NCBI GenBank assembly: GCA_965220205.1
Contig: OZ244812.1
Span: forward strand, 1,705,678 to 1,769,677
Direction of reading: 5' to 3'
Origin: Dehalococcoidia bacterium
Lineage (GTDB): Bacteria > Chloroflexota > Dehalococcoidia > Lucifugimonadales > Australimonadaceae
Length of the DNA: 64,000 nucleotides
Below the pieces are notes generated by a model. The model saw only the letters and a program-made list of their open reading frames with translations, was not told where the DNA came from and did not search any database. The position numbers were made by a program, and so were the translations under genes. This document shows, one piece after another, positions 1,632-14,691 of this stretch (positions are counted from its first letter, which is position 1; each line of letters starts with the position of its first letter).

Positions 1632-1826
1632 ATGTGGGTCGATTACAAGACGGCGCCCAACCTGATGTTGGCCGAGATGTGGAAGGAGATCATCGAAGGG
1701 GAGGGCCTGCCTGTGCGTCTGCTGCCGGAGAGCGACATCCTCGACTACGGAGAGTCGACGCCGTTCCGCATCATGGTGCCGCGCGGCCGTGAGCACGTTG
1801 CGGACGAGATTCTCAGGAAGCTCTGA
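1632..1826 (+). CDS. Small soluble protein, DUF2007-like (putative signal-transducing fold), inserted between nuoK and nuoL
   Basis: 64-aa ORF filling the nuoK-nuoL gap on the same strand. Non-hydrophobic. The pattern APNLMLAEMWKEIIEGEGLPVRLL...PFRIMVPRGREHVADEIL resembles DUF2007-type small domains. The family assignment is by eye only. Confidence 0.45.
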   Translation: MWVDYKTAPNLMLAEMWKEIIEGEGLPVRLLPESDILDYGESTPFRIMVPRGREHVADEILRKL

Positions 1827-1844: not shown

Positions 1845-3869
1845 ATGATACCTGAAGCCGCGGTCTGGGCGATCATCGGGCTGCCACTCGCAGCCGGCCT
1901 CATCATCATTGCCGCCCTCCGTCCCTGGACGCCCCGCGCGTGGCGCTACAGCGGCCTCGTGGCGACCGCGGGCATCGGCGCGGCGTTCGCGCTGAGCCTC
2001 TGGGCCCTCGACTCGGCGACCACGAGCGATGGGCCTGCCGGCTTCGCGCCCCGCCACTGGTTCACCGTCGGCGCCACGGACATCCAACCGGGATTCCGCA
2101 TGACCGTCGGCGTACTGCTGGACCCGCTCAACGCCGTCATGCTCGCGCTCGTGTCGGGTGTGAGCATGGTCGTGCAGGTGTACTCGCTCGGCTACATGCG
2201 CAAGGCGAACGAGGACGACGGCGGAGCGTGGGCGGACTACCCGCGCTATTTCGCGTACATGTCGCTGTTCACGGCCGCGATGCTGGGCCTCGTGCTCGCG
2301 TACAACCTCATCCAACTATTCGTGTTCTGGGAGCTGGTCGGGCTCATGTCTTACCTGCTGATCGGCTTCTGGCACGAGCGGCCTGCCGCAGCAGCAGCAG
2401 CGAAGAAGGCGTTCATCATCACACGCGTCGGGGACTTCGGCTTCCTGCTGGCGCTGATATGGCTATTCGTGAACCGCGGCGAGTTCGAGGCGTTGGGCGT
2501 CAACCCGTTCGAGATACCGACGCTGATCTCCGGCGAGGTGCTGCCGCTGTTGTCGGCCGGGCTCGTGACGTGGACGGCGCTCGGGGTGTTCGCGGGCGCC
2601 GCCGGCAAATCAGCCCAGCTTCCGCTAAATACGTGGCTCCCCGACGCGATGGAGGGTCCGACGCCCGTGAGCTCGCTGATTCACGCGGCGACGATGGTGG
2701 CTGCGGGCGTATTCCTGGTTGCGCGTCTCTTTCCGCTGTTCGAGCAGAGCAGCGGCGCGCTGAACACCGTCGCGTTGATCGGCGCAGTGACGGCGTTGGC
2801 CGCGGCGGCCATGGCGCTCGTGGCCAACGACATCAAGCGCGTGTTGGCGTTTTCGACGGTGAGCCAGCTCGGCTACATGTTCCTGGCGCTGGGAGTCGGC
2901 GCGCCTGGAGTGGCCATCTTCCACCTGTTCAACCACGCCTTCTTCAAGTGCCTGCTCTTCCTCGGAGCGGGGAGCGTGCACCACTCGGTGCAGACCTTCG
3001 ACATGCGGCGCATGGGCGGCTTGCGGCACTGGATGCCTGTGACCTACCTCACGATGGTCGTCGCGGCGTTGAGCTTGGCCGGCATCGCCCCGCTGGCGGG
3101 TTTCTGGAGCAAGGACGAGGTGCTCGCGTTCGCCTGGCAGGTCGAGAGCGCCGACCCCGGGCATGAGGCGATTGGGCAGGCCGTCTTCTGGGTGGGCCTC
3201 GTCGCATCGGGCCTGACCGGGTTCTACATCTTCCGGCTCATCTTCATGACGTTCCACGGCGAGTTCCGCGGCGGGATCGACGTCGTGCCACCGGACCAAC
3301 GGCTGCCCGGCGAAGAGGGTCAGCACGTCCACCGGAGCGAATCGCCGGCGTCGATGGTCCTGCCCATGATTGTCCTCGCGCTCTTCGCCGTCTTCTCGGG
3401 GCTCGTCGCCAACAGCTTCATCGAGCTGGGTCCGGTGCCTGCGCACTGGCTCGCCCACGCGCTGCACGCGGACACGCCCGCCTTCCACTGGCCGATCGCG
3501 GTTGCGTCGTCCGCGGTAGCGGCGACCGGCATCCTCGGCGCGGTGCTCGTCTACGGTGTGCGAACTGTCTCGCTGGCGGGGCTCCCGGCGCCGTTCCCGT
3601 TCCTGCGGCGCGTGCTCGAAGAGCGCTTCTACATGGACTACCTGTACGAGACAATCATCGTGCGCCGGGTGCTGTTCCGCGGCCTGTTCTCGCTGTCCGA
3701 CTGGACGGACCGCCGACTGGTGGACGGACTCGCCGACCTCGTGGCGCTCCTGGGGAGGAACGGCGGGCGGTTTGTGGCCCAGTTGCAAACCGGTCAGGTG
3801 CAAGCCTACGGAGTGGGCGTCGCCGTGGGCGTGATCGCCCTTCTCGGCGCCTTCATGGCGCAACGGTAA
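1845..3869 (+). CDS. nuoL: NADH-quinone oxidoreductase subunit L
   Basis: 674-aa polytopic protein with antiporter-like motifs (WLPDAMEGPTPVSSLIHAATMVAAGVFL, AFSTVSQLGYMF) and the long C-terminal extension typical of NuoL. Confidence 0.93.
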   Translation: MIPEAAVWAIIGLPLAAGLIIIAALRPWTPRAWRYSGLVATAGIGAAFALSLWALDSATTSDGPAGFAPRHWFTVGATDIQPGFRMTVGVLLDPLNAVMLALVSGVSMVVQVYSLGYMRKANEDDGGAWADYPRYFAYMSLFTAAMLGLVLAYNLIQLFVFWELVGLMSYLLIGFWHERPAAAAAAKKAFIITRVGDFGFLLALIWLFVNRGEFEALGVNPFEIPTLISGEVLPLLSAGLVTWTALGVFAGAAGKSAQLPLNTWLPDAMEGPTPVSSLIHAATMVAAGVFLVARLFPLFEQSSGALNTVALIGAVTALAAAAMALVANDIKRVLAFSTVSQLGYMFLALGVGAPGVAIFHLFNHAFFKCLLFLGAGSVHHSVQTFDMRRMGGLRHWMPVTYLTMVVAALSLAGIAPLAGFWSKDEVLAFAWQVESADPGHEAIGQAVFWVGLVASGLTGFYIFRLIFMTFHGEFRGGIDVVPPDQRLPGEEGQHVHRSESPASMVLPMIVLALFAVFSGLVANSFIELGPVPAHWLAHALHADTPAFHWPIAVASSAVAATGILGAVLVYGVRTVSLAGLPAPFPFLRRVLEERFYMDYLYETIIVRRVLFRGLFSLSDWTDRRLVDGLADLVALLGRNGGRFVAQLQTGQVQAYGVGVAVGVIALLGAFMAQR

Positions 3870-3881
3870 GGCGGGTGTGAC

Positions 3882-5363
3882 GTGCTGACCGCTGTCATCT
3901 TCTTCCCCGCCGTGGGCGCCGCGGTCGTCATGGCGGCCGGACGCAACCCGCGCGTCGCACGGTGGGTCGCGCTCGCCACGGTCGCGATCGAGCTCGTGCT
4001 TGCTATCGTTGTATTCGCGCGCTACGACCCGGGCGCAGGCGGATACGACCTCGTCGAGCGAGCCAGCTGGGTCGCCGCCTTCGACATCGAGTACCTGGTT
4101 GGCGTCGACGGGCTCAGCGCGCCCCTCGTGCTGCTGAACGGCATCCTCGGCGTCGCCGCCATGCTCGTGTCGTGGAACATTGCACACCGGGTGCGCGAGT
4201 ACTTCATGTGGCTCCTCGTGCTGCAAAGCGCCGTCATGGGCGTTTTCTTGTCGCTTGACCTCATCCTCTTCTTCGTGTTCTGGGAGCTCGAACTCCTGCC
4301 GATGTTCTTCCTGATCTCCATGTGGGGAACGGGCAGGCGCGAGTACTCGGCGATGAAGTTCGTGCTGTTCACCTTCCTCGGCTCGGCGTTCATGCTGGCG
4401 GCGATTCTGGCCATCTACTTCTCGCAGTCGGCCGCCGACCGGACGTTCGACATGACGGCGTTGGCGGACCAGGGCGTGACGGGAGGCGTCGTTCCGGCGT
4501 CGTTCATCTTCGCCGGCTTCCTCATCGCGTTCGCAGTCAAGCTGCCCATCTTCCCACTGCACACGTGGCTGCCCGACGCTCATACGGACGCCCCGACGGC
4601 TGTTAGCGTCATGCTGGCGGGCGTGCTGCTCAAGATGGGCGGGTACGGCCTCCTGCGCATCAACGCGGGACTCATGCCGGATGAGCTGAGGGAGTTCGCC
4701 CCATTGCTGGCGGCGTTGGCGGTGATCGGCGTGCTATACGGCGCGTTCATCGTCGTCATGCAGACCGACCTCAAACGGATGGTCGCCTACAGCTCGGTGA
4801 GCCACATGGGGTTTGTCGTGCTTGGCATCGCGTCCGCCGGCGCGGCCGCGGGCGAGATCAACGGCGTGGGGCTGAACGGCGCCGCGCTTCAGCTCTTCAC
4901 TCACGGCACAATCACCGGGTTGCTGTTCGTGGTGGTCGGCCTCGTGTACGAACGCGCGCATACGCGGCACATCCCCGACATGGGCGGGTTCGCCCGGAGC
5001 ATGCCGCTCATCGCCATAGGCTTCATGATTGCGGGCCTAGCCTCGCTGGGCCTGCCCACCACGTCCGGGTTCGTCGCGGAGATCATGGTGTTCTTCGGCA
5101 CGTTCCCGGTGTACGGGGCCGCCACGGGCCTGGCCGCCTTCGGCGTCGTGCTCGCCGCGGGCTACATCCTCTGGACCGTGCAACGCGTGTTGTTCGGCCC
5201 GCGCCTCGAACGGTGGGATGGGCTCACGGACGCGAAGCTCGTCGACGTCGGAGCGATCGTCGTCCTCGCAGCGCCGATCCTCGTCGTCGGACTCTACCCC
5301 CGGCTGCTCACCGACGTGTTCGACGCCGGCATCAGTCCGATCGTCCGCGGGTTGGGGGGCTGA
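3882..5363 (+). CDS. nuoM: NADH-quinone oxidoreductase subunit M
   Basis: 493-aa protein with FVFWELELLPMFFLISMWG and HTWLPDAHTDAPTAVSVMLAGVLLKMGGYG motifs. Sits between nuoL and nuoN. Confidence 0.93.
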   Translation: MLTAVIFFPAVGAAVVMAAGRNPRVARWVALATVAIELVLAIVVFARYDPGAGGYDLVERASWVAAFDIEYLVGVDGLSAPLVLLNGILGVAAMLVSWNIAHRVREYFMWLLVLQSAVMGVFLSLDLILFFVFWELELLPMFFLISMWGTGRREYSAMKFVLFTFLGSAFMLAAILAIYFSQSAADRTFDMTALADQGVTGGVVPASFIFAGFLIAFAVKLPIFPLHTWLPDAHTDAPTAVSVMLAGVLLKMGGYGLLRINAGLMPDELREFAPLLAALAVIGVLYGAFIVVMQTDLKRMVAYSSVSHMGFVVLGIASAGAAAGEINGVGLNGAALQLFTHGTITGLLFVVVGLVYERAHTRHIPDMGGFARSMPLIAIGFMIAGLASLGLPTTSGFVAEIMVFFGTFPVYGAATGLAAFGVVLAAGYILWTVQRVLFGPRLERWDGLTDAKLVDVGAIVVLAAPILVVGLYPRLLTDVFDAGISPIVRGLGG

Positions 5364-5365
5364 GC

Positions 5366-6880
5366 ATGGGCATCGAGGCGCGCGACCTCTTCCTCATTTC
5401 GCCCGAGCTCTCGCTCGTGGCGTTGGCTGCGATCGTCGTGCTGATCGACCTCGTAGCGAGGCGAGCGGGCGCAGCCGTAGTCGTGGGGCTCGTCGGCCTA
5501 GTCGCTCCCTTCGCCGCCGGCATCGGCCTGTGGAACGAGGTCCACGCCGCCGCCGACGCCGAGCTCGGTTTCAACGGATCGCTCGTGGTCGACAAGTTCG
5601 CGTTGTACTTCAAGTTCCTCATCCTGGGCGTGCTCGCCCTCGTCCTCCTCGCCGGCGCAGACCACCTCAAACGCTTCCGCCCCTACGAAGCGGAGTTCGT
5701 CGCGCTGGTCCTCTTCTCGTCGGCAGGGCTCATGCTGCTTCCCGCGTCGGCCGACCTGATCACGCTGTACGTGTCGTTGGAGCTCGCCTCGCTGCCCGTC
5801 GTGGCGCTTGCGGCATTCGCGAAGTCACAGGCGCGCTCCGTTGAGGCGGGGATGAAGTACCTGGTCCTCTCCGCGATCGCGTCCGCGGTGTTGCTGTACG
5901 GCTTCGCATTCATCTACGCCGCGACCGGGAGCATCCGGCTGATCCCGCTGGACGGCGGACCGACGATCGCGGGGATCGCCTTGGCGGGCGACGACGGATC
6001 GCCCTTCGGGAGCTTGGCGCTCATGGCGGGCGCCGTCATGGCGGCGGCGGGGTTCGGCTTCAAGCTCTCGATGGCCCCCTTCCAGATGTGGACGCCCGAC
6101 GTCTACGAGGGAGCGCCGACGCCCGTTGCCGCGTTCCTCGCGGTAGCGAGCAAAGCCGCCGCGTTCGCCGTGGTCCTGCGCGTCTTCTACGCCGCCTTCC
6201 CGGGCGACCTCAGCGCTGACTGGTCCATCATGTACGCGGCGCTCGCAGTCGTCACGATGAGCGTTGGGAACGTCGTTGCCATCGCGCAGTCCAACATCAA
6301 GCGGCTGTTGGGTTACAGCGCGATCGCGCAGGCGGGATACGTGCTCATCGGCGTCGCGGCGGTCGCGGGACGCAGCCCGGATGCCGCCAACGAGGTCCTC
6401 GGGGTCAGCAGCGTGCTGTTCTACCTCGGCGGCTACGCGGCCATGAACCTGGCGGCGTTCTTCGCCGTCATTGTCATCACGGACCGGACCGCCAACGACC
6501 GGATCGACGGTCTCGCGGGGATGGGCTACCGCTCGCCGGCGTTGGCCGCCGTGCTCGCCTTTGCACTCCTATCGCTGACCGGCTTGCCGCCCACGGTAGG
6601 GTTCATGGGCAAGCTGTTCCTGTTCAACGCAGCCGTGAACGCGGACCTGACATGGCTGGCGGTAGTGGGCGTCGTCAACAGCGTCGTGTCCGCCTACTAC
6701 TACATCGGTGTCGTGCGCGTCATGTATCTGCGGTCGGCCGAGGACGACTCCATCGTCAGCGCGGGCATTCCGGCGCGGGTCGCCATCGGCGTCGCCGCCG
6801 CGGGCGTGCTGGTGCTCGGCCTGTGGCCGGGCGGCCTGCTCAGCGTAGCCAGAACAGCCGCCGACTCCCTGCTTGCTTAG
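5366..6880 (+). CDS. nuoN: NADH-quinone oxidoreductase subunit N
   Basis: ATG at 5366, 2 nt after the nuoM stop. MGIEARDLFLISPELSLVALAAIVV... with the FQMWTPDVYEGAPTPVAAFLAVASKAA motif. The upstream part of the tracked ORF overlaps nuoM. Confidence 0.9.
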   Translation: MGIEARDLFLISPELSLVALAAIVVLIDLVARRAGAAVVVGLVGLVAPFAAGIGLWNEVHAAADAELGFNGSLVVDKFALYFKFLILGVLALVLLAGADHLKRFRPYEAEFVALVLFSSAGLMLLPASADLITLYVSLELASLPVVALAAFAKSQARSVEAGMKYLVLSAIASAVLLYGFAFIYAATGSIRLIPLDGGPTIAGIALAGDDGSPFGSLALMAGAVMAAAGFGFKLSMAPFQMWTPDVYEGAPTPVAAFLAVASKAAAFAVVLRVFYAAFPGDLSADWSIMYAALAVVTMSVGNVVAIAQSNIKRLLGYSAIAQAGYVLIGVAAVAGRSPDAANEVLGVSSVLFYLGGYAAMNLAAFFAVIVITDRTANDRIDGLAGMGYRSPALAAVLAFALLSLTGLPPTVGFMGKLFLFNAAVNADLTWLAVVGVVNSVVSAYYYIGVVRVMYLRSAEDDSIVSAGIPARVAIGVAAAGVLVLGLWPGGLLSVARTAADSLLA

Positions 6881-6943
6881 GCGACGACATGCCATAGGCG
6901 CAGCCAACAAGCAGCATGCGAGTGCAATTTCTCAGAAGTCGTC

Positions 6944-7297
6944 GTGGAGCATCGTCGAATGGAAACACCGAAGATCGCGGACAAAGTCAGGTTCTGGGAG
7001 GAGCAAGACCGCATCAACAAGGAACTCATACCACGCGTGCTGAAGCAACACGAGTTGCTCACCGCGCACGTTGAGCATCACACCCACGCCGACCCTGAGG
7101 CCAGAGCGCAGATAAAGACGCTGGAACAGGAAACGGCGGCCCAGATGAAGACGTTGGAAGAGAGCACCGTGTCACGGATACGGACGCTCGAAGAGAGCGC
7201 GGCGGCGGCGGTGCGCTCCGCCAAGCGTCAGTCGCTGATCGTCTCCTTCACTAGCTTCGCCGTGGCCATCGCGGCGATCGTTCTTGCGCTTACGTAG
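6944..7297 (+). CDS. Hypothetical tail-anchored coiled-coil protein
   Basis: 117-aa ORF in an AT-richer stretch. Charged helical body with three 11-residue repeats (QIKTLEQETAA, QMKTLEESTVS, RIRTLEESAAA). Single C-terminal TM helix LIVSFTSFAVAIAAIVLAL. Confidence 0.55.
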   Translation: MEHRRMETPKIADKVRFWEEQDRINKELIPRVLKQHELLTAHVEHHTHADPEARAQIKTLEQETAAQMKTLEESTVSRIRTLEESAAAAVRSAKRQSLIVSFTSFAVAIAAIVLALT

Positions 7298-7308
7298 GGC
7301 GCGCGCGC

Positions 7309-8445
7309 ATGGAATCGCTCTCCTTACTGCTGGAACTCCAGGCGCTGCCCTCTATCGAAGAGGCCGGCGAGCTCGCCCCCGCGGAGATGATGTCGCGAGT
7401 CCGGGCGATGGACCGAGACAACTTCGCCATCGAGGTCTCGATTGCCGTCGAGGAGGGGCTGGAAGCCCTGTTCGACGCTCGCAATGTGGGCGACCACTTG
7501 TCAACGGCCTATGGCGAGGTCTTTCCGAACGCGGCGTCTGATCATGAGTCCATGTACGATCACTACCTGGCGATGCTGGCGAAAGGGGAGGCGTCAGTAA
7601 CGGGCTTCATCAACCCGTTGAAGGGCAGGCTCGCAGAGTTCGAGGCCGAGTCCGTACTGGAAGAACGATTCCCCGGTTGGAACTTCACCCTTGCTCGCGA
7701 CCCGACGCAGCCGGACTGGGACCTGCAGGGAATAGGCCCGGAGGGTCAAGAGATGCTGGTCCAGATCAAGACCGGCGCGGCAAGTTATGTCGGCGACGTG
7801 TTGGAGCGCATGGAGGGGAGTCCCGACATAGCGTTCGCCGTTAGCGGCAACCTGTTCGCTCAGCTGACCGAGAAGGCGTCGGAATTGTCACACCTGCTCA
7901 TAAACCTTGACGTTAGCAACCACGAATTCACTACTGAGGCTAGAGAAGGTCTGGGAACACTGGCCGCGAACATGGGCATCGACGTTCCCGACTCGATCGG
8001 AGAAGTGTTGCCGTACGTCGGCGAGGTCGTGCTCGGCATCAAGCTCATTCACAGCATCGTCTCGACGGAGCGGACGCTCCGGGGCGAGGCGCTGTCCGAC
8101 CGCTCCCGCGTGCATGGCGTTCAGACGCTGGCGTTGATGACGCGATTCGGCGTCGCGTCGGTATGCGGGATGGCGGGCGCGGCAGGCGGCGGCGCGGCAG
8201 GCACATTTGTGCTGCCGGGCGTCGGGTCGCTTGGGGGATCACTCGCCGGCGGGGTTGCCGGCGCGGGCTTCGCAATGGCGCTGAACCGGAAGCTCCAGCC
8301 TCACATAGAGGACGTCGCCGTCCGGCTGGTTGGCGGGGACCCGGACGACCTGCTCTACCTGATGAACAAGCTGGCAATCGACGAGATAGGAGAGTCGTTG
8401 GCCGCCACCGAACTCGGAGGGCTGGCTCGATTGACACCCCTATAG
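7309..8445 (+). CDS. Hypothetical protein: Mrr-like PD-(D/E)xK nuclease-fold core plus C-terminal glycine-zipper membrane hairpin
   Basis: 378-aa ORF starting 11 nt after the previous ORF. GRLAEFEAESVLEERFPGWNF...QPDWDLQG...EMLVQIKTG matches the helix/strand/D...QxK layout of Mrr-type nuclease cores. GVASVCGMAGAAGGGAAGTFVLPGVGSLGGSLAGGVAGAGFAMAL is a glycine-zipper hydrophobic segment. Assignment is by eye. Confidence 0.6.
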   Translation: MESLSLLLELQALPSIEEAGELAPAEMMSRVRAMDRDNFAIEVSIAVEEGLEALFDARNVGDHLSTAYGEVFPNAASDHESMYDHYLAMLAKGEASVTGFINPLKGRLAEFEAESVLEERFPGWNFTLARDPTQPDWDLQGIGPEGQEMLVQIKTGAASYVGDVLERMEGSPDIAFAVSGNLFAQLTEKASELSHLLINLDVSNHEFTTEAREGLGTLAANMGIDVPDSIGEVLPYVGEVVLGIKLIHSIVSTERTLRGEALSDRSRVHGVQTLALMTRFGVASVCGMAGAAGGGAAGTFVLPGVGSLGGSLAGGVAGAGFAMALNRKLQPHIEDVAVRLVGGDPDDLLYLMNKLAIDEIGESLAATELGGLARLTPL

Positions 8446-8512
8446 GCCGTCGCTAGACTCGTGGCGGCGGGCTCGGCTGGCCGCCCGTTCATTTCGAGAC
8501 CGGGAGGCGGAG

Positions 8513-11902: not shown

Positions 11903-13186
11903 CTACTTGCCCACCGACGCCAGGGCGTCCCGGACAATCTCCAGCGCCGTGGCGAGCTGGTCCTGGTAGTCGGTCTGGCTCCCGATCACCAAGTAGTCGA
12001 CGTCGGGATTACGGATGCTCGTGGGGTCAACGCCCGTCGTCGGAATGTCCGCGCGCAACGAATGGGCTTCGCTCGCCCGCTGCGCCAGCAGCTGCCCCTC
12101 CTTGCTCATGAACCAGTTGGCGAAGAACTTCTGCGCGTTGGGGTTCGGCGGGCTGTCCATAACGTAGAACGCGCCGCCGCCCGGACTCACGCTCGCCCCT
12201 TCCGCGAGGATGTGGGGCCAGTTGTTCTCGACCGGCTGCCCCTCATTCTTCAGGTTGCGCACGTCGCGCCCGCACGCCCACATGCAGAGCTCGTACTTGC
12301 CCAGCGCCAGCTGTTCCGCGGCTTGCCTGGCGCCTTGGACCACCGTGACGTCCGTCTCCGTCATCATCCGCTGCAGCCAGTCTTCGCCCAGCTCCGGATT
12401 CATGTAGTAGAAGGCGGTCGAGCCGGACGAGCCGACCTCGCGCGGGTCGCGGATGATGATCTTGCCATGCCACCGCGGTTCGAGGAGGTCCCAGAACGAC
12501 TGAATGTCGTTGGGGTCAACCAGGTCCGTGTTGTAGGCGATGCCCGCTGTGCCCCCTGACCCGGTCCAACCGAGGACGTACTGCTTCTCCGGGTCGAACC
12601 AGTGGAGCCGCCCCTCGAACCAGAGGGACTCGTCGACGACCTCGGGCCAGAACAGCAAGGGCTTGAGGGGCGTGAGGGCGCCCGCCGGAATCAGCGTGGG
12701 GATGCCCGGGTTCAGCCCGCCCGACCACACGTCAAGCGTGTACCTGCCGGCCTCGCGCTCGGCGAGGACCTTCGGGGCCTGCTCCCGGGAAGAGCCCCCC
12801 GAGAAGGTCACCTTGATCTCGTACTTGTCCTCGAACTCGCCGACCACGTCGCCCATGCCGGTGCCCAGTCCACAGCAGAAGAAGGCTTGCAGCTCGCCCT
12901 CCTCCTGTGCGGCTGCGAGCAGCGCGTCTTTCTCCGCCTCGATGGCGGCCATGGCGTCGGGCGCCGGCTCCATCGCCTCGGGCATCGCCGTGGGCTCCAT
13001 CGCCTCGGGCATCGCCGTGGGCTCCATCGCCTCGGGCATCGCCGTGGGCTCCATCATTGCCGTCGGCGTCGGCGCCGACGTCGGCGTGGGGCGCGGCGTC
13101 GCCGTCGGGTCGCTGCCGCACGCCGCGAGCATCAGGGCGCCCGCGATTCCCACGATTACTAGCACAGCCGGCCTGGTCCACTTCAT
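11903..13186 (-). CDS. ABC transporter substrate-binding lipoprotein
   Basis: ATG at 13186 preceded by GGGAGG. Signal peptide plus lipobox (MKWTRPAVLVIVGIAGALMLAACGS). Pro/Thr linker with 3 x MEPTAMPEA, then a family-1-like solute-binding body. The tracked ORF extends further upstream, but that part is Arg-rich with no signal peptide. Confidence 0.85.
   Translation of the reverse strand: MKWTRPAVLVIVGIAGALMLAACGSDPTATPRPTPTSAPTPTAMMEPTAMPEAMEPTAMPEAMEPTAMPEAMEPAPDAMAAIEAEKDALLAAAQEEGELQAFFCCGLGTGMGDVVGEFEDKYEIKVTFSGGSSREQAPKVLAEREAGRYTLDVWSGGLNPGIPTLIPAGALTPLKPLLFWPEVVDESLWFEGRLHWFDPEKQYVLGWTGSGGTAGIAYNTDLVDPNDIQSFWDLLEPRWHGKIIIRDPREVGSSGSTAFYYMNPELGEDWLQRMMTETDVTVVQGARQAAEQLALGKYELCMWACGRDVRNLKNEGQPVENNWPHILAEGASVSPGGGAFYVMDSPPNPNAQKFFANWFMSKEGQLLAQRASEAHSLRADIPTTGVDPTSIRNPDVDYLVIGSQTDYQDQLATALEIVRDALASVGK
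12968..13048. repeat. Perfect 3 x 27-bp tandem repeat inside the binding-protein linker
   Basis: CTCCATCGCCTCGGGCATCGCCGTGGG occurs three times without a mismatch. In frame on the minus strand, it encodes MEPTAMPEA x3. Confidence 0.9.
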
Positions 13187-13263
13187 TTCAATCCTCCCAG
13201 CATCGTATCGGCGGACGCGCGTCTGTCGGGCGTGCGTCCCAGTTTCGCCAGCGAGTCTCTCCG

Positions 13264-14691
13264 CTACGGCAGGCCCAACTCCTGCCATCGGCTCGCGATT
13301 TGGGCCATGTACTCCCGGCTCGACTTGTTGATCGGCGGAAGGTTCTCGAACTTGAACTTGAACGACGCATTGATGCCAGTCGGATCCGGCACGTCTGAGT
13401 CGATGTCGTAGTCGGCATTGCGCCCGTGACGCCCCTGCGTCTGCCCCATGTCGGGATGGAACGCCTTCCCCTTGACGAAATCCTGCTCCCAACGAACGTT
13501 CGTGACCATCCGCCAGGTGACGTCGTTCCAGTTCCGGACGTCGCAGTCCTCGTCGACGACGATGATCCAACGGTTGGGGACGATCTTCCACACGGCGTCG
13601 ATGATGCGCAGCGGCTCCTCCGGGTCGTTGATCTCCGCCGATACGACGGCGGCGCCCCAACTGCGTCCGCCAATCTCCGGGAAGAACGCGTGGCGGATGC
13701 TCGTGAGGCCGCTCTCGTTCTTGATCCGCGCCTCGAATGAGCCGGAGCGGAAGAGCCAGCGCGGGTAGTCCTCCTCGAGGAGGCAGATCACGCCGTAGTT
13801 GATGGGGTTGCGCCGGTGCGTGATGCAGGTGACCGTCATGAACGCCGCCTCGAGGTTCTGCCCGTAGAAGCCGCCGGCCTCGCCGTGCGGGCCCTCCACG
13901 TGCGTCGCGTAAGGCGCAATCTCACCCTCGATGATGTACTCGGAGTGGGCCGGGACCATGAGGTCGCTCATCTCGCAGCGCACGAGCTCCGTTGGCGCGC
14001 CGCGCCACGCGCCCGCCGCCTCGTATTCCATATGACCGTTCGCGTCCACGGGCACCGGGCTCCCCGACGCCAGGCAGAGCAGCGGGTCCATCCCGACGGC
14101 AATGGCAATCGGGGTCGGCTTGCCCATGGCGTCGTTCTTTGCGACGTGCGCGCGCAGTTGCCCGGACACCGTCAGGTGGTCCTTGTCCACGATCATCGCC
14201 CGGTAGGTGCCCATGTTGATGATGCCCGTATCGGGGTCGCGCGTGATGACTCCGGCCGAGGTCCCGATGTACTGCCCGCCGTCGAGCTCGTGCCAGTACG
14301 GCGTGGGCATCTCGTAAAGATCAACGTCGCCGCCGGTGGCTATCACCTCTTTGCAGGGGCCCGTCTCCACGTTCAACGAGGAGATGCGGTTGTTGTGACC
14401 GTCGACGATGATCGAGTACATCACGTCCGGGTCGGGGTCGCAGTTGAACGCGAGAGCCAACTGGTCGACCGTCGAGATGATGTTGCTCACTAGCGGCTTG
14501 CCCTCATACCCGATGATGTTGTCGAACACGATGGCCGGGCCCTTGCGTTCGAGCGAGCGGGTGAGGATAGCGCCAGCCTCGTACTTGAGGTCGACCGGCG
14601 CCGTGACGTGTACGAGCAACCCCTTCTCTTCCAGGAGCTGCATGTACTCGCGCATATCCGTATAGCCGACCTGCCTGCCTTGTGTCGCCAC
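13264..14691 (-). CDS. UbiD-family (prenylated-FMN dependent) decarboxylase/carboxylase, paralog 1
   Basis: 475 aa. N-terminus YTDMREYMQLLEEKGLLVHVTAPVDLKYEAGAILTRSLERKGPAIVFDNIIGYEG is the canonical UbiD signature region. Confidence 0.9.
   Translation of the reverse strand: MATQGRQVGYTDMREYMQLLEEKGLLVHVTAPVDLKYEAGAILTRSLERKGPAIVFDNIIGYEGKPLVSNIISTVDQLALAFNCDPDPDVMYSIIVDGHNNRISSLNVETGPCKEVIATGGDVDLYEMPTPYWHELDGGQYIGTSAGVITRDPDTGIINMGTYRAMIVDKDHLTVSGQLRAHVAKNDAMGKPTPIAIAVGMDPLLCLASGSPVPVDANGHMEYEAAGAWRGAPTELVRCEMSDLMVPAHSEYIIEGEIAPYATHVEGPHGEAGGFYGQNLEAAFMTVTCITHRRNPINYGVICLLEEDYPRWLFRSGSFEARIKNESGLTSIRHAFFPEIGGRSWGAAVVSAEINDPEEPLRIIDAVWKIVPNRWIIVVDEDCDVRNWNDVTWRMVTNVRWEQDFVKGKAFHPDMGQTQGRHGRNADYDIDSDVPDPTGINASFKFKFENLPPINKSSREYMAQIASRWQELGLP

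What the first reader, a model, noticed from the sequence alone, without database searches (positions are those of the whole stretch)
6944..8445. AT-richer two-gene cassette after nuoN: tail-anchored coiled-coil protein plus Mrr-like nuclease-fold protein with a glycine-zipper membrane hairpin
Composition becomes visibly AT-richer directly after the nuoN stop, especially at 6900-7100, compared with the flanking nuo and Rieske genes. Two same-strand ORFs follow, separated by only 11 nt, and neither has an evident role in complex I. ORF1 (117 aa) is a charged helical protein with three 11-residue repeats and a single C-terminal TM anchor. ORF2 (378 aa) has a helical N-region, then GRLAEFEAESVLEERFPGWNF..QPDWDLQG..EMLVQIKTG. 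That segment fits the helix-strand-D...QxK layout of Mrr-type PD-(D/E)xK cores. It ends with a glycine-zipper hydrophobic hairpin (GVASVCGMAGAAGGGAAGTFVLPGVGSLGGSLAGGVAGAGFAMAL) and about 55 C-terminal residues. A nucleic-acid-binding or cleaving fold fused to a membrane-inserting glycine zipper, with a small membrane-anchored coiled-coil partner, is typical architecture for abortive-infection or defence effectors. I do not recognise this pairing as a named system. It is my best candidate for an undescribed system in this window.
Basis: partly seen in the sequence, partly recalled or inferred. Interest (0 to 1): 0.7.

Follow-up and report, generated by a model that had tools for sequence, protein, structure and literature searches.

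The report
Mobile membrane-anchored nuclease gene pair
Two unannotated genes after the complex I operon form a self-contained, horizontally transferred pair: a tail-anchored coiled-coil protein and a restriction-enzyme-like nuclease on a glycine-zipper membrane module. It is probably a conflict or defence module, but its function is untested.

Summary
Two same-strand ORFs (6944/6959-7297 and 7309-8445, 11 nt apart) follow nuoN. They are the AT-richest genes in the window (GC3 0.77-0.78 against 0.87±0.05).

They are not complex I parts. In 80 related genome loci an ORF1 homolog lies directly upstream of ORF2 in 77, yet the neighbouring genes differ.

ORF2 residues 58-206 fold confidently (pLDDT 88.7) as an alpha-beta-beta-beta-alpha-beta core with invariant E110, D138 and Q152-x-K154. 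The leading structural matches are PD-(D/E)xK nucleases (NucS, EcoT38I, Mrr-type). Family members match PADLOC's untested candidate PDC-M72B, and weakly match Mrr_cat.

The nuclease is not the conserved core. The core is ORF1's near-invariant FWEEQDxINxxLIPRV motif plus its membrane anchor, together with ORF2's C-terminal ~175-residue glycine-zipper module. Variants without the nuclease (Exiguobacterium, metagenomes) still have the ORF1 partner.

The pair crosses phyla, has low GC3 in most hosts, and changes protein sequence 6-9 times faster than its flanks. Some copies are broken by an IS element or by stops or frameshifts.

Against a defence role: no clear defence-island enrichment, no phage or plasmid copies, and a very acidic nuclease domain.

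Best reading: a mobile, membrane-anchored nuclease conflict module of undescribed type.

The parts
6881..6958 (+). Upstream non-coding leader of the pair, with a Shine-Dalgarno-like GGAG at 6947-6950
   Evidence: About 60 nt before ORF1 are conserved with the relative L006, although L006 has about 1.45 kb of extra DNA between nuoN and this leader. The sequence is shown.
6944..7297 (+). ORF1: tail-anchored coiled-coil partner protein (117 aa from GTG 6944; probably 112 aa from ATG 6959)
   Evidence: Homologs lie directly upstream of ORF2 homologs in 77 of 80 loci. No Pfam, NCBIfam, PADLOC or PHROG family matches.
6974..7081 (+). ORF1 N-terminal signature motif (residues 11-46): IADKVRFWEEQDRINKELIPRVLKQHELLTAHVEHH
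   Evidence: I, F, W, E, I, N, L and R are invariant across 53 sequences from several phyla. The 48-residue motif stretch averages 67% pairwise identity, against 49% for ORF2. The motif is kept in the partners of nuclease-less variants.
7094..7204 (+). ORF1 variable coiled-coil: three 11-residue repeats, encoded by three 33-nt DNA repeats
   Evidence: The length of this segment varies: trimmed ORF1 homologs run from about 90 to 387 aa. It gives only coiled-coil-type matches to the ZorA tail, LmuB and JetC.
7235..7294 (+). ORF1 C-terminal transmembrane anchor (residues 98-117); no residues follow it
   Evidence: Kyte-Doolittle maximum 2.62. A C-terminal hydrophobic tail is present in the homologs inspected.
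7309..8445 (+). ORF2: 378-aa protein made of an N-terminal helical region, a PD-(D/E)xK domain and a C-terminal glycine-zipper membrane module
   Evidence: 101 homologs. A profile search found 726 representatives of 50%-identity clusters at E<=1e-3.
7480..7926 (+). ORF2 PD-(D/E)xK (Mrr/NucS-like) nuclease-fold domain, residues 58-206. Motif codons: E110 7636-7638, D138 7720-7722, Q152 7762-7764, K154 7768-7770
   Evidence: AF2 domain model has pLDDT 88.7 and pTM 0.78, with an alpha-beta-beta-beta-alpha-beta core. The leading Foldseek matches are PD-(D/E)xK nucleases at probability 0.91-1.00, with E no better than 3.9e-3 in PDB and 9.8e-4 in BFVD. K105, G106, E110, D138, Q152 and K154 are invariant in 46 sequences. 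PDC-M72B is hit by 27 of 46 members, best E 1.9e-8. Mrr_cat is hit by 7 of 46, best E 0.0047.
7900..8430 (+). ORF2 C-terminal conserved module (residues ~198-374): NxGIDVPD loop, LP, two amphipathic/hydrophobic helices, glycine-zipper hairpin, DDLFYxxN helix
   Evidence: It aligns with nuclease-less relatives at hhalign probability 100%, E 1.4e-39. Invariant residues: N221, P227, P235, G290, G294, P303, G306, G314, Y350, N353.
8149..8283 (+). Glycine-zipper hairpin (residues 281-325) around the Pro303-Gly304 turn
   Evidence: Sequence. Sub-threshold matches to Gly-zipper_Omp, Rick_17kDa_Anti and DUF1269 in family members. Weak matches to a short stretch of the PADLOC LeoB model. AF2 confidence here is low.
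8429..8463 (+). Promoter-like TTGACA-17-TAGACT stretch overlapping the ORF2 stop, upstream of the Rieske gene
   Evidence: In L006 a 67-nt copy of this stretch also lies 610 nt upstream of ORF1, so the two copies bracket the pair.

Best explanation
The two genes form an autonomous, horizontally mobile two-gene membrane module, most likely a conflict system.

Candidate roles: defence against incoming DNA or phage, abortive infection, or an addiction-type toxin/antidote pair.

ORF2 (proposed): anchored in the cytoplasmic membrane by its C-terminal glycine-zipper hairpin module. It holds an Mrr/NucS-like PD-(D/E)xK nuclease head with an intact E-D-QxK site on the cytoplasmic face.

ORF1 (proposed): a tail-anchored protein. 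Its near-invariant N-terminal helix-Pro-helix motif (FWEEQDxINxxLIPRV) docks on the conserved non-nuclease part of ORF2. Its variable-length coiled coil acts as spacer, oligomeriser or regulator.

Working model: tethering and the partner keep the nuclease away from the chromosome or inactive. A trigger at the membrane (DNA entry, membrane perturbation) releases or activates it. The glycine zippers may then also oligomerise into a leak or pore.

Shown:
- the pair is a unit
- fold class and motif conservation
- core versus optional parts
- horizontal transfer, atypical composition, fast evolution and occasional decay

Inferred:
- nuclease activity
- membrane insertion
- contact between ORF1 and ORF2
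- the trigger and any protective role
For: Unit:
- An ORF1 homolog lies directly upstream of ORF2 in 77 of 80 genome loci. The three exceptions hold only disrupted or fragmentary ORF2 remnants.
- Gaps between the two genes are 1-25 nt in independent gene calls.
- Pairwise identities of the ORF1 motif and of ORF2 are correlated, r=0.72.

Autonomy:
- Flanking genes differ between loci. The recurrent neighbours are only common metabolic paralog families: luciferase-like monooxygenases, short-chain dehydrogenases, MFS transporters.
- The pair is inserted between thrS and infC in Moraxella and between two tRNA-Arg genes in L011.

Mobility and conflict-like evolution:
- Copies in Latescibacterota, Bryobacterales and Gemmatimonadetes are 56-67% identical to their closest copy in another phylum, mostly Chloroflexota. 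Many copies within Dehalococcoidia are only 31-40% identical to the window protein.
- GC3 is low relative to the host in most loci.
- Window against L006: ORF2 dN 0.075 and omega 0.39, against nuoN 0.012/0.11 and Rieske 0.008/0.08.
- Broken copies exist: an IS inside the zipper in L049, and split ORFs in L047, L056, L068, L074, L076, L080 and L081.
- A tandem duplication of the pair in L025, and two loci in one genome.

Nuclease head.

Core is ORF1 plus the C-module:
- Nuclease-less relatives in Exiguobacterium sp. NG55 and in metagenome contigs have an FWEEQ-motif tail-anchored gene 1-14 nt upstream.
- Other relatives carry duplicated nuclease domains.

Defence-flavoured contexts do occur:
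- The P0241 variant lies in a cluster of GmrSD, an REase_II-like gene and an HTH+Peptidase_M78 gene.
- Toxin-antitoxin cassettes, a transposase, an integrase or Eco57I lie near the pair in L004, L006 and L088.
- Among 147 immediate neighbours there are single strong hits to PDC-M41B, PDC-M30B, a type II nicking REase, SoFic, PsyrT and mad2.
Against: - No experimental data exist for any member.
- Neighbourhoods are mostly metabolic. Only a few per cent of the 147 genes within two positions match defence models, and several of those matches are generic.
- There are no copies in 50,697 phage records, 72,556 plasmids or IMG/VR contigs.
- The window protein itself reaches only E=0.023 against PDC-M72B. 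ORF1 matches no PADLOC model, so this is not PDC-M72.
- The nuclease domain is very acidic throughout the family: pI 4.1-5.1, net charge -15 over 149 residues. That is unusual for a DNA-binding enzyme.
- The glycine-zipper region is only moderately hydrophobic, and AF2 gives it pLDDT below 50. Membrane insertion of ORF2 is therefore not shown.
- Foldseek E-values are weak: the best is 3.9e-3 in PDB.
Confidence: 0.45

Rival explanations
1. Membrane effector with a sensing head. The real effector is the glycine-zipper module, which oligomerises into a pore and depolarises the cell (abortive infection). The PD-(D/E)xK domain mainly senses or binds a nucleic-acid or nucleotide signal. ORF1 gates the pore. 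This would resemble TM-effector proteins of CBASS or type III CRISPR systems, such as Cam1 and Cap15.
For: - The C-module plus ORF1 is the constant part, and the heads vary or are absent.
- Glycine-zipper matches.
- The acidic head fits poorly with non-specific DNA binding.
- The structural match list includes Card1 and Can2, which are ligand-activated nucleases.
Against: - The catalytic E110, D138, Q152 and K154 are invariant in all 46 aligned members. A pure sensor would not need them.
- No cyclase or other signal-producing gene is linked to the pair.
- Pore formation is untested.
Confidence: 0.2
2. A non-conflict accessory membrane function. Examples: an envelope or stress-related scaffold, or a membrane-tethered nucleic-acid processing enzyme of the host. 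It is widely kept in Dehalococcoidia and occasionally transferred.
For: - Usually a single copy on chromosomes, among metabolic genes.
- Synteny is kept within clades: window with L006, L001 with L005, L003 with L087.
- Purifying selection overall: omega 0.17-0.26 for ORF2 and 0.08-0.10 for ORF1 at larger distances.
- No clear defence-island signal.
Against: - Distribution across phyla does not follow phylogeny.
- GC3 is low in most hosts.
- Non-synonymous divergence is 6-9 times that of the flanking genes.
- Copies broken by an IS or by stops or frameshifts are tolerated.
- Insertion into the thrS-infC operon and into a tRNA cluster.
Confidence: 0.2
3. A lineage-specific accessory subunit pair of respiratory complex I, as suggested by its position directly after nuoN.
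For: Position after nuoN on the same strand, in the window and in L006.
Against: - Only the window and its closest relative L006 have this position. The other annotated contexts and the neighbour clustering show no recurring link to nuo genes.
- In L006, 1.45 kb including an antitoxin-like gene separates nuoN from the pair.
- Composition and evolutionary rate differ sharply from nuoN.
Confidence: 0.02
4. A remnant of a prophage lysis or superinfection-exclusion cassette (holin- or spanin-like membrane proteins).
For: - Both are small membrane proteins.
- Weak similarity of the zipper to the glycine-rich parts of tape-measure proteins.
- An integrase or a transposase lies within 6-7 kb of the pair in L004 and L088.
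Against: - No homolog in phage genomes or viral contigs, and no significant PHROG match.
- No phage structural genes in any of the 11 contexts with Pfam-annotated gene calls.
- Tail-anchor topology puts ORF1 in the cytoplasm, unlike spanins.
Confidence: 0.03

Closest known systems
Mrr/NucS-type PD-(D/E)xK nucleases (Pfam Mrr_cat PF04471; structures 2vld NucS, 5gke EndoMS, 7edb EcoT38I, 3dnx)
   Same: Alpha-beta-beta-beta-alpha-beta core with E on the first helix, D on strand 2 and QxK on strand 3. These are the top structural matches at probability 0.91-1.00.
   Different: - Sequence similarity is below the Pfam threshold: best E 0.0047, in 7 of 46 members.
- The domain is strongly acidic.
- It is fused to a membrane module and paired with a tail-anchored partner, which the compared nucleases are not, from my knowledge of them.
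PADLOC phage-defence candidate PDC-M72, component B. A two-gene cassette predicted by 'guilt by embedding', with 31 occurrences and untested (bioRxiv 10.1101/2024.01.29.577857)
   Same: The nuclease head (about residues 80-200) matches the PDC-M72B models in 27 of 46 family members, best E 1.9e-8.
   Different: - The PDC-M72B models are only 168 and 193 positions long and cover only the nuclease head.
- The window protein scores E=0.023.
- ORF1 has no PADLOC match and no PDC-M72A model appears among the 25 families listed for ORF1 relatives, so the A component does not correspond.
- The pair was not seen embedded in BREX, DISARM or RM loci in the contexts examined.
- PDC-M72 itself has no demonstrated function.
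Glycine-zipper 2TM domains (Pfam Gly-zipper_Omp PF13488, Rick_17kDa_Anti PF05433, DUF1269)
   Same: Repeated GxxxG helices around a Pro-Gly turn. Weak matches in several family members.
   Different: - All matches are below the gathering scores.
- Here the hairpin sits inside a larger conserved ~175-residue module with its own invariant motifs (NxGIDVPD, LP, DDLFYxxN) that those families lack.
Zorya (ZorA cytoplasmic coiled-coil tail) and Kiwa (membrane sensor KwaA plus DNA-binding KwaB). An analogy from my own knowledge.
   Same: A membrane-embedded component with a long cytoplasmic coiled coil coupled to a nucleic-acid-directed activity. Long ORF1 relatives match ZorA models in the tail region, best E 2e-8.
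   Different: - The matches lie only in the variable coiled coil, not in the conserved motif. There is no MotA/ExbB domain.
- KwaB is matched by one member only, at E=0.025.
- This is not membership.
Type II toxin-antitoxin pairs and nuclease/inhibitor pairs
   Same: A small upstream gene plus a larger downstream gene with a probable toxic activity, closely spaced, scattered as solo cassettes among metabolic genes and next to other TA cassettes.
   Different: - ORF1 is a membrane-anchored coiled-coil protein with no DNA-binding domain.
- Its most conserved part goes with the non-nuclease module, not with the nuclease.
- No toxicity data exist.

Membership tests
PD-(D/E)xK nuclease superfamily (Mrr-like) | Alpha-beta-beta-beta-alpha-beta core fold | tested here: met
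   AF2 domain model has pLDDT 88.7, with elements H37-63, E68-71, E82-85, E91-97, H101-113 and E117-121. The same elements appear in the full-length model.
PD-(D/E)xK nuclease superfamily (Mrr-like) | Catalytic motif: E on helix 1, D on strand 2, (D/E/Q)xK on strand 3 | tested here: met
   E110, D138, Q152 and K154 are invariant in 46 sequences of 35-96% identity, at the expected secondary-structure positions.
PD-(D/E)xK nuclease superfamily (Mrr-like) | Significant structural match to solved members | tested here: inconclusive
   The leading hits are PD-(D/E)xK nucleases at probability 0.91-1.00, but the best PDB E-value is 3.9e-3 and TM-scores are 0.33-0.43. One BFVD hit reaches 9.8e-4.
PD-(D/E)xK nuclease superfamily (Mrr-like) | Pfam Mrr_cat match above the gathering score | tested here: not met
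   The window protein has no hit. 7 of 46 members hit, best E 0.0047.
PD-(D/E)xK nuclease superfamily (Mrr-like) | Metal-dependent phosphodiester cleavage | not testable with these tools
   Needs purified protein. The acidic surface (pI 4.1-5.1) is a caution.
PADLOC PDC-M72 candidate system | B component matches the PDC-M72B model | tested here: inconclusive
   Window protein E=0.023. 27 of 46 family members match, best E 1.9e-8, over the nuclease head only.
PADLOC PDC-M72 candidate system | A component present next to B | tested here: not met
   ORF1 has no PADLOC hit. No PDC-M72A model is among the 25 PADLOC families listed for the 53 ORF1 relatives, the least frequent of which were hit by 2 members.
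Glycine-zipper 2TM families (Gly-zipper_Omp, Rick_17kDa_Anti) | Pfam match above the gathering score | tested here: not met
   Best E 1.1e-4, in 4 of 46 members. Relatives P0239 and P0243 score 17 bits against cut-offs of 24-25. The GxxxG pattern itself is plain in the sequence.
Anti-phage defence system (generic criteria) | Enrichment next to known defence genes (defence islands) | tested here: inconclusive
   Eleven Pfam-annotated contexts are mostly metabolic, with scattered TA, transposase, Eco57I or GmrSD genes. Of 147 genes within two positions in 53 loci, only a handful give strong defence-model hits. No background rate was computed.
Anti-phage defence system (generic criteria) | Protection against phage when expressed | not testable with these tools
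   Needs an experiment.
Type II toxin-antitoxin module | Small labile antitoxin with a DNA-binding domain that neutralises the adjacent toxin | tested here: not met
   ORF1 has no DNA-binding domain in Pfam or NCBIfam. It is a tail-anchored coiled-coil protein. Neutralisation cannot be tested here.
Eleos (LeoA/LeoBC dynamin-like) and Zorya (ZorA) | Dynamin GTPase domain; MotA/ExbB channel domain | tested here: not met
   Matches are confined to the zipper stretch of ORF2 (LeoB model positions 395-477) and to the coiled coil of ORF1 (ZorA tail positions). E-values run from 1e-3 to 2e-8, and the defining domains are not matched.
Respiratory complex I operon member | Conserved linkage to nuo genes | tested here: not met
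   Only the window and L006 share this position.

The most novel reading that the evidence does not exclude
This would be a previously undescribed class of membrane-embedded conflict module.

Its invariant core is a tail-anchored 'FWEEQD' protein plus a ~175-residue glycine-zipper module. That core carries exchangeable cytoplasmic heads: a single or duplicated Mrr-like nuclease, an unknown ~100-residue head, or a TM/coiled-coil head.

It would guard the inner face of the membrane against entering foreign DNA, or kill the infected cell. It would spread between unrelated bacteria that share a habitat.
Probability: 0.3. Interest if true: 0.8.

Novelty: new variant of a known kind. Interest (0 to 1): 0.58.

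Why it matters
The family is large and diverse: 726 representatives of 50%-identity clusters, across Chloroflexota, Latescibacterota, Acidobacteriota, Gemmatimonadota, Bacillota and Proteobacteria. It has no Pfam, NCBIfam or PHROG family, and only a domain-level match to an untested PADLOC candidate.

If it is a defence or addiction system, it adds a new architecture with a constant membrane core and swappable heads. It would also be a candidate immune module for uncultivated Dehalococcoidia. By name, several source genomes look like sponge-associated bins; that is my reading and was not checked.

If it is not a conflict system, the near-invariant 40-residue ORF1 motif still marks an unknown, strongly constrained membrane-proximal interaction worth solving.

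Culturable carriers exist (an Exiguobacterium strain and Moraxella relatives), so the question is directly testable.

Tried and rejected
Direct family and structure-sequence searches:
- Both window proteins gave nothing significant against Pfam, NCBIfam, PADLOC or PHROGs.
- PDB sequence searches with the single protein and with the profile gave nothing.

ORF1 motif search:
- The big protein database returned only short unnamed fragments. It gave no annotation and no alternative partners.

Phage and plasmid searches:
- tblastn against phages and plasmids, and a scan of IMG/VR, found no relatives.

Complex I accessory-subunit idea:
- Rejected on context.

A conserved third gene:
- Rejected. Clustering of 864 flanking ORFs gave only common metabolic paralog families.

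Kinship with Eleos or Zorya, suggested by PADLOC hits to LeoB/LeoC/ZorA:
- Rejected as compositional. The hits fall in the glycine zipper and the coiled coil, not in the defining domains or in the ORF1 motif.

Flanking direct repeats as a general mobility signature:
- Found only in L006, L062 and L086 (27-49 nt). Not general.

tRNA adjacency:
- tRNA genes lie within about 1.5 kb of the pair in only a handful of 60 loci, most clearly L011 and L013.

ORF1-ORF2 fusion proteins (P0190, P0231) as 'Rosetta stone' evidence:
- They look like read-through or deletion artefacts. I do not rely on them.

Metagenome scan for nuclease-less variants:
- It mostly returned full-length members.

Literature:
- No paper names PDC-M72 in its main text.
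- The PADLOC preprint's supplement lists it only as cassette FAM_01979>>FAM_01904, with no description.
Full report
**1. What is in the window**

- After nuoN (stop at 6880) come two same-strand ORFs: 6944-7297 (117 aa from GTG) and 7309-8445 (378 aa from ATG), with 11 nt between them.
- The true ORF1 start is probably ATG 6959. GGAG lies 9-12 nt upstream, homologs begin 'METPKI', and the relative in L006 was called at 112 aa.
- ORF1 has three 11-residue repeats, encoded by a 33-nt tandem repeat at 7106-7204. It ends in a 20-residue hydrophobic anchor with nothing after it.
Its glycine zipper spans residues 281-325 around Pro303-Gly304, followed by 53 residues.

**2. Composition**

- GC drops to 0.57 at 6901-7200 and 0.58-0.60 at 7651-8100, against 0.66-0.68 nearby.
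- The two genes have the lowest GC of about 40 gene-like ORFs in the window. Their GC3 is 0.77-0.78 against 0.87±0.05.
- The same holds in other hosts. The pair's GC3 is below the neighbour median in 93% of 72 loci, median -0.12. My neighbour set there is biased upward.
- With independent gene calls the pair is still lowest or nearly lowest in four loci.

**3. No named family, but a large one**

- Neither protein matches Pfam, NCBIfam, PADLOC or PHROGs at a meaningful level. Neither matches any PDB sequence.
- ORF2 nevertheless has about 100 mostly full-length homologs at 35-96% identity on long chromosomal contigs.
- A profile search of 1.84 billion representatives finds 726 at E<=1e-3 and 147 at E<=1e-30.
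- In species-representative genomes the family is mostly in Dehalococcoidia/Chloroflexota. It is also in Latescibacterota, Bryobacterales, Gemmatimonadetes and Moraxella lacunata.

**4. The two genes are one unit, independent of their surroundings**

- In 77 of 80 genome loci an ORF1 homolog ends just before the ORF2 homolog. The three exceptions hold only disrupted or fragmentary ORF2 remnants.
- Gene-call gaps are 1-25 nt.
- Pairwise identities of the ORF1 motif and of ORF2 correlate, r=0.72.
- The flanks differ between loci. Only the window and its close relative L006 have the pair after nuoN. In L006, 1.45 kb including an antitoxin-like gene separates nuoN from the pair.
- Clustering 864 flanking ORFs gave no conserved third gene. 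It gave only luciferase-like monooxygenases, SDRs, MFS transporters, ADHs, Rieske oxygenases and CoA-transferases.
- In Moraxella lacunata the pair sits between thrS and infC. In L011 it sits between two tRNA-Arg genes.
- The complex I idea is therefore rejected.

**5. The middle of ORF2 is a PD-(D/E)xK fold**

- The full-length AF2 model is confident only for residues 60-200.
- A domain-only model (residues 58-206, 26 sequences) has pLDDT 88.7 and pTM 0.78, with a helix, three strands, a helix and a strand.
- Foldseek against the PDB lists, with the highest probabilities:
  - 3dnx (probability 1.00, E 3.9e-3)
  - NucS 2vld (0.98)
  - EcoT38I (0.97)
  - EndoMS and the DdmD nuclease domain
  - further down: Card1, EcoO109I, YaeQ, AvaII, Ecl18kI, Bax1 and SfsA
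- The viral library gives 'nuclease', 'Mrr domain', 'Holliday junction resolvase' and 'VRR-NUC' proteins, best E 9.8e-4.
- E-values and TM-scores are weak, but the fold class of the leading matches is consistent.
- K105, G106, E110, D138, Q152 and K154 are invariant in 46 sequences. They sit on helix 1, strand 2 and strand 3 as expected for E...D...QxK.
- Scanning members one by one, 7 of 46 touch Mrr_cat (best E 0.0047). 27 of 46 match PADLOC PDC-M72B (best E 1.9e-8) over residues ~80-200.
- PDC-M72 is a two-gene 'phage defence candidate' predicted from embedding in known systems. It has 31 occurrences, no test and no description.
- One caution: the domain is very acidic in every member, pI 4.1-5.1.

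**6. The conserved core is not the nuclease**

- ORF1 relatives vary from about 90 to 387 aa once trimmed to the motif, because the coiled coil varies.
- About 40 N-terminal residues are nearly invariant across phyla: IxEKVRFWEEQDxINxxLIPRVxxQxELLTxH.
- PADLOC hits of long ORF1 relatives to ZorA, LeoBC, LmuB and JetC all fall in the coiled coil, so I treat them as compositional.
- In ORF2, residues ~198-374 form a second conserved block with these features:
  - NxGIDVPD
  - LP
  - two helices with conserved charges
  - the zipper
  - DDLFYxxN
- Some relatives have this block with a different, shorter N-terminus and no nuclease. hhalign aligns only this block, at probability 100% and E 1.4e-39.
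- Two independent nuclease-less examples still have an FWEEQ-motif tail-anchored gene immediately upstream:
  - Exiguobacterium sp. NG55: 76 aa, 'KIKFWEEQEEINKIL...' plus a TM segment
  - a low-GC metagenome lineage: 129 aa
- Other relatives have two nuclease domains (P0102, P0105).
- One variant has a TM segment and coiled coil fused to the block. It lies in a cluster of GmrSD, an REase_II-like gene, an HTH+Peptidase_M78 gene and a Zn-ribbon gene.
- So ORF1 most probably works with the C-terminal module, and the nuclease is an exchangeable head.

**7. Evolutionary behaviour**

- Copies in Latescibacterota, Bryobacterales and Gemmatimonadetes are 56-67% identical to their closest copy in another phylum, mostly Chloroflexota. 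Many Dehalococcoidia copies are only 31-40% identical to the window protein. Transfer between phyla has therefore occurred.
- Window against L006: ORF2 has dN 0.075 and omega 0.39. ORF1 has omega 0.65. nuoN has dN 0.012 and omega 0.11. The Rieske gene has 0.008 and 0.08.
- At greater distance omega is 0.17-0.26 for ORF2 and 0.08-0.10 for ORF1. The genes are under purifying selection but evolve fast.
- About one locus in nine holds a broken ORF2. One is cut inside the zipper by an IS element.
- L025 has a tandem duplicate of the pair. One Latescibacterota genome has two loci. L001 has three ORF1 paralogs.

**8. Evidence bearing on a defence role**

- For:
  - mobility, atypical composition, fast evolution and decay
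  - a nuclease head related to a defence candidate
  - toxin-antitoxin cassettes, a transposase, an integrase or Eco57I nearby in L004, L006 and L088
  - the GmrSD cluster of the P0241 variant
- Against or neutral:
  - Most neighbourhoods are metabolic.
  - Among 147 genes within two positions in 53 loci, only a handful give strong defence-model hits: PDC-M41B, PDC-M30B, a nicking REase, SoFic, PsyrT and mad2. The other hits shown are generic: oxidoreductase, cysteine desulfurase and ThiF-like.
  - There are no phage, plasmid or viral-contig copies.
- The PADLOC authors note that many real systems are 'solo'. The lack of island enrichment is therefore not decisive.

**9. Verdict**

- The fold and zipper assignments are supported.
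- The pairing is one of the most rigid features of the family.
- The 'defence effector' reading is plausible but unproven.
- My best explanation (confidence 0.45) is a mobile two-gene membrane conflict module. A tail-anchored partner controls a glycine-zipper-anchored protein whose usual head is an Mrr-like nuclease.
- The main rivals are these:
  - pore effector with a sensing head (0.20)
  - non-conflict accessory membrane function (0.20)
  - prophage remnant (0.03)
  - complex I subunit (0.02)
- As a system it is undescribed. As a kind, a membrane-tethered nuclease module with a small partner, it is a new variant of something known.

Noticed in passing
window 1632-1826 (+): A 64-aa ORF (MWVDYKTAPNLMLAEMWKEII...) sits between nuoK and nuoL inside the complex I operon. 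The same small gene is present in the relative L006 (879-1073) with no Pfam family.
   Followed up: no
window 8429-8463 (+); L006 6976-7042 and 9124-9190: A promoter-like TTGACA-17-TAGACT stretch overlaps the ORF2 stop, upstream of the Rieske/LigXa gene. In L006 a 67-nt copy (first 26 nt identical) also lies 610 nt upstream of ORF1. The two copies bracket the pair plus about 600 bp of repeat-rich non-coding DNA. This may be a trace of how the cassette was inserted or rearranged.
   Followed up: partly
L006 6237-6542 (-) and 6543-7650: The closest relative has an antitoxin-like gene (Pfam dnstrm_HI1420) and about 1.1 kb of repeat-containing non-coding DNA between nuoN and the pair. The window lacks both, so this junction is a variable spot.
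   Followed up: partly
window about 12900-13100 (-), inside the ORF listed as 11903-13660: The solute-binding lipoprotein gene has a threefold 'AMEPTAMPE' tandem repeat in its N-terminal linker. Its real start is probably the internal MKWTRPAVLV... signal peptide.
   Followed up: no
L049 7018-8415 (-): A 465-aa DDE transposase (an IS element) is inserted inside the glycine-zipper coding part of the ORF2 homolog. The remainder of ORF2 resumes at 8318.
   Followed up: partly
L056 (Moraxella lacunata contig) 2173-4202: The pair is inserted between thrS and infC, which are normally adjacent. ORF2 is split just before the catalytic Asp. An intact close relative exists as protein P0336.
   Followed up: partly
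L011 5330-7293: The pair lies exactly between tRNA-Arg(CCG) and tRNA-Arg(CCT).
   Followed up: no
L025 2304-4322 and 5380-7095; L001 6902-7990: L025 has a tandem duplication of the whole pair. L001 has three consecutive ORF1 paralogs before a single ORF2.
   Followed up: no
L095 1218-6421 (also L096, L097): A variant with an N-terminal TM segment and coiled coil fused to the C-module (P0241) closes a cluster of GmrSD, an REase_II-like 237-aa protein, an HTH+Peptidase_M78 protein and a 106-aa zinc-ribbon protein. This may be a separate multi-gene defence locus.
   Followed up: partly
proteins P0231 and P0190 (representative library): Apparent fusions of the ORF1 motif to ORF2. P0231 also has a lysine-rich, histone-H1-like N-terminus. 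They may be read-through or deletion artefacts.
   Followed up: no
L015, L022, L034 (Latescibacterota), upstream part of the ORF1 reading frame: The open frame that contains ORF1 extends upstream through one or two glyoxalase/VOC-like repeats (HLVTGDLEESVKFYTQTLGLKEIE...). I did not resolve whether this is a real fusion or an adjacent gene with no intervening stop.
   Followed up: no
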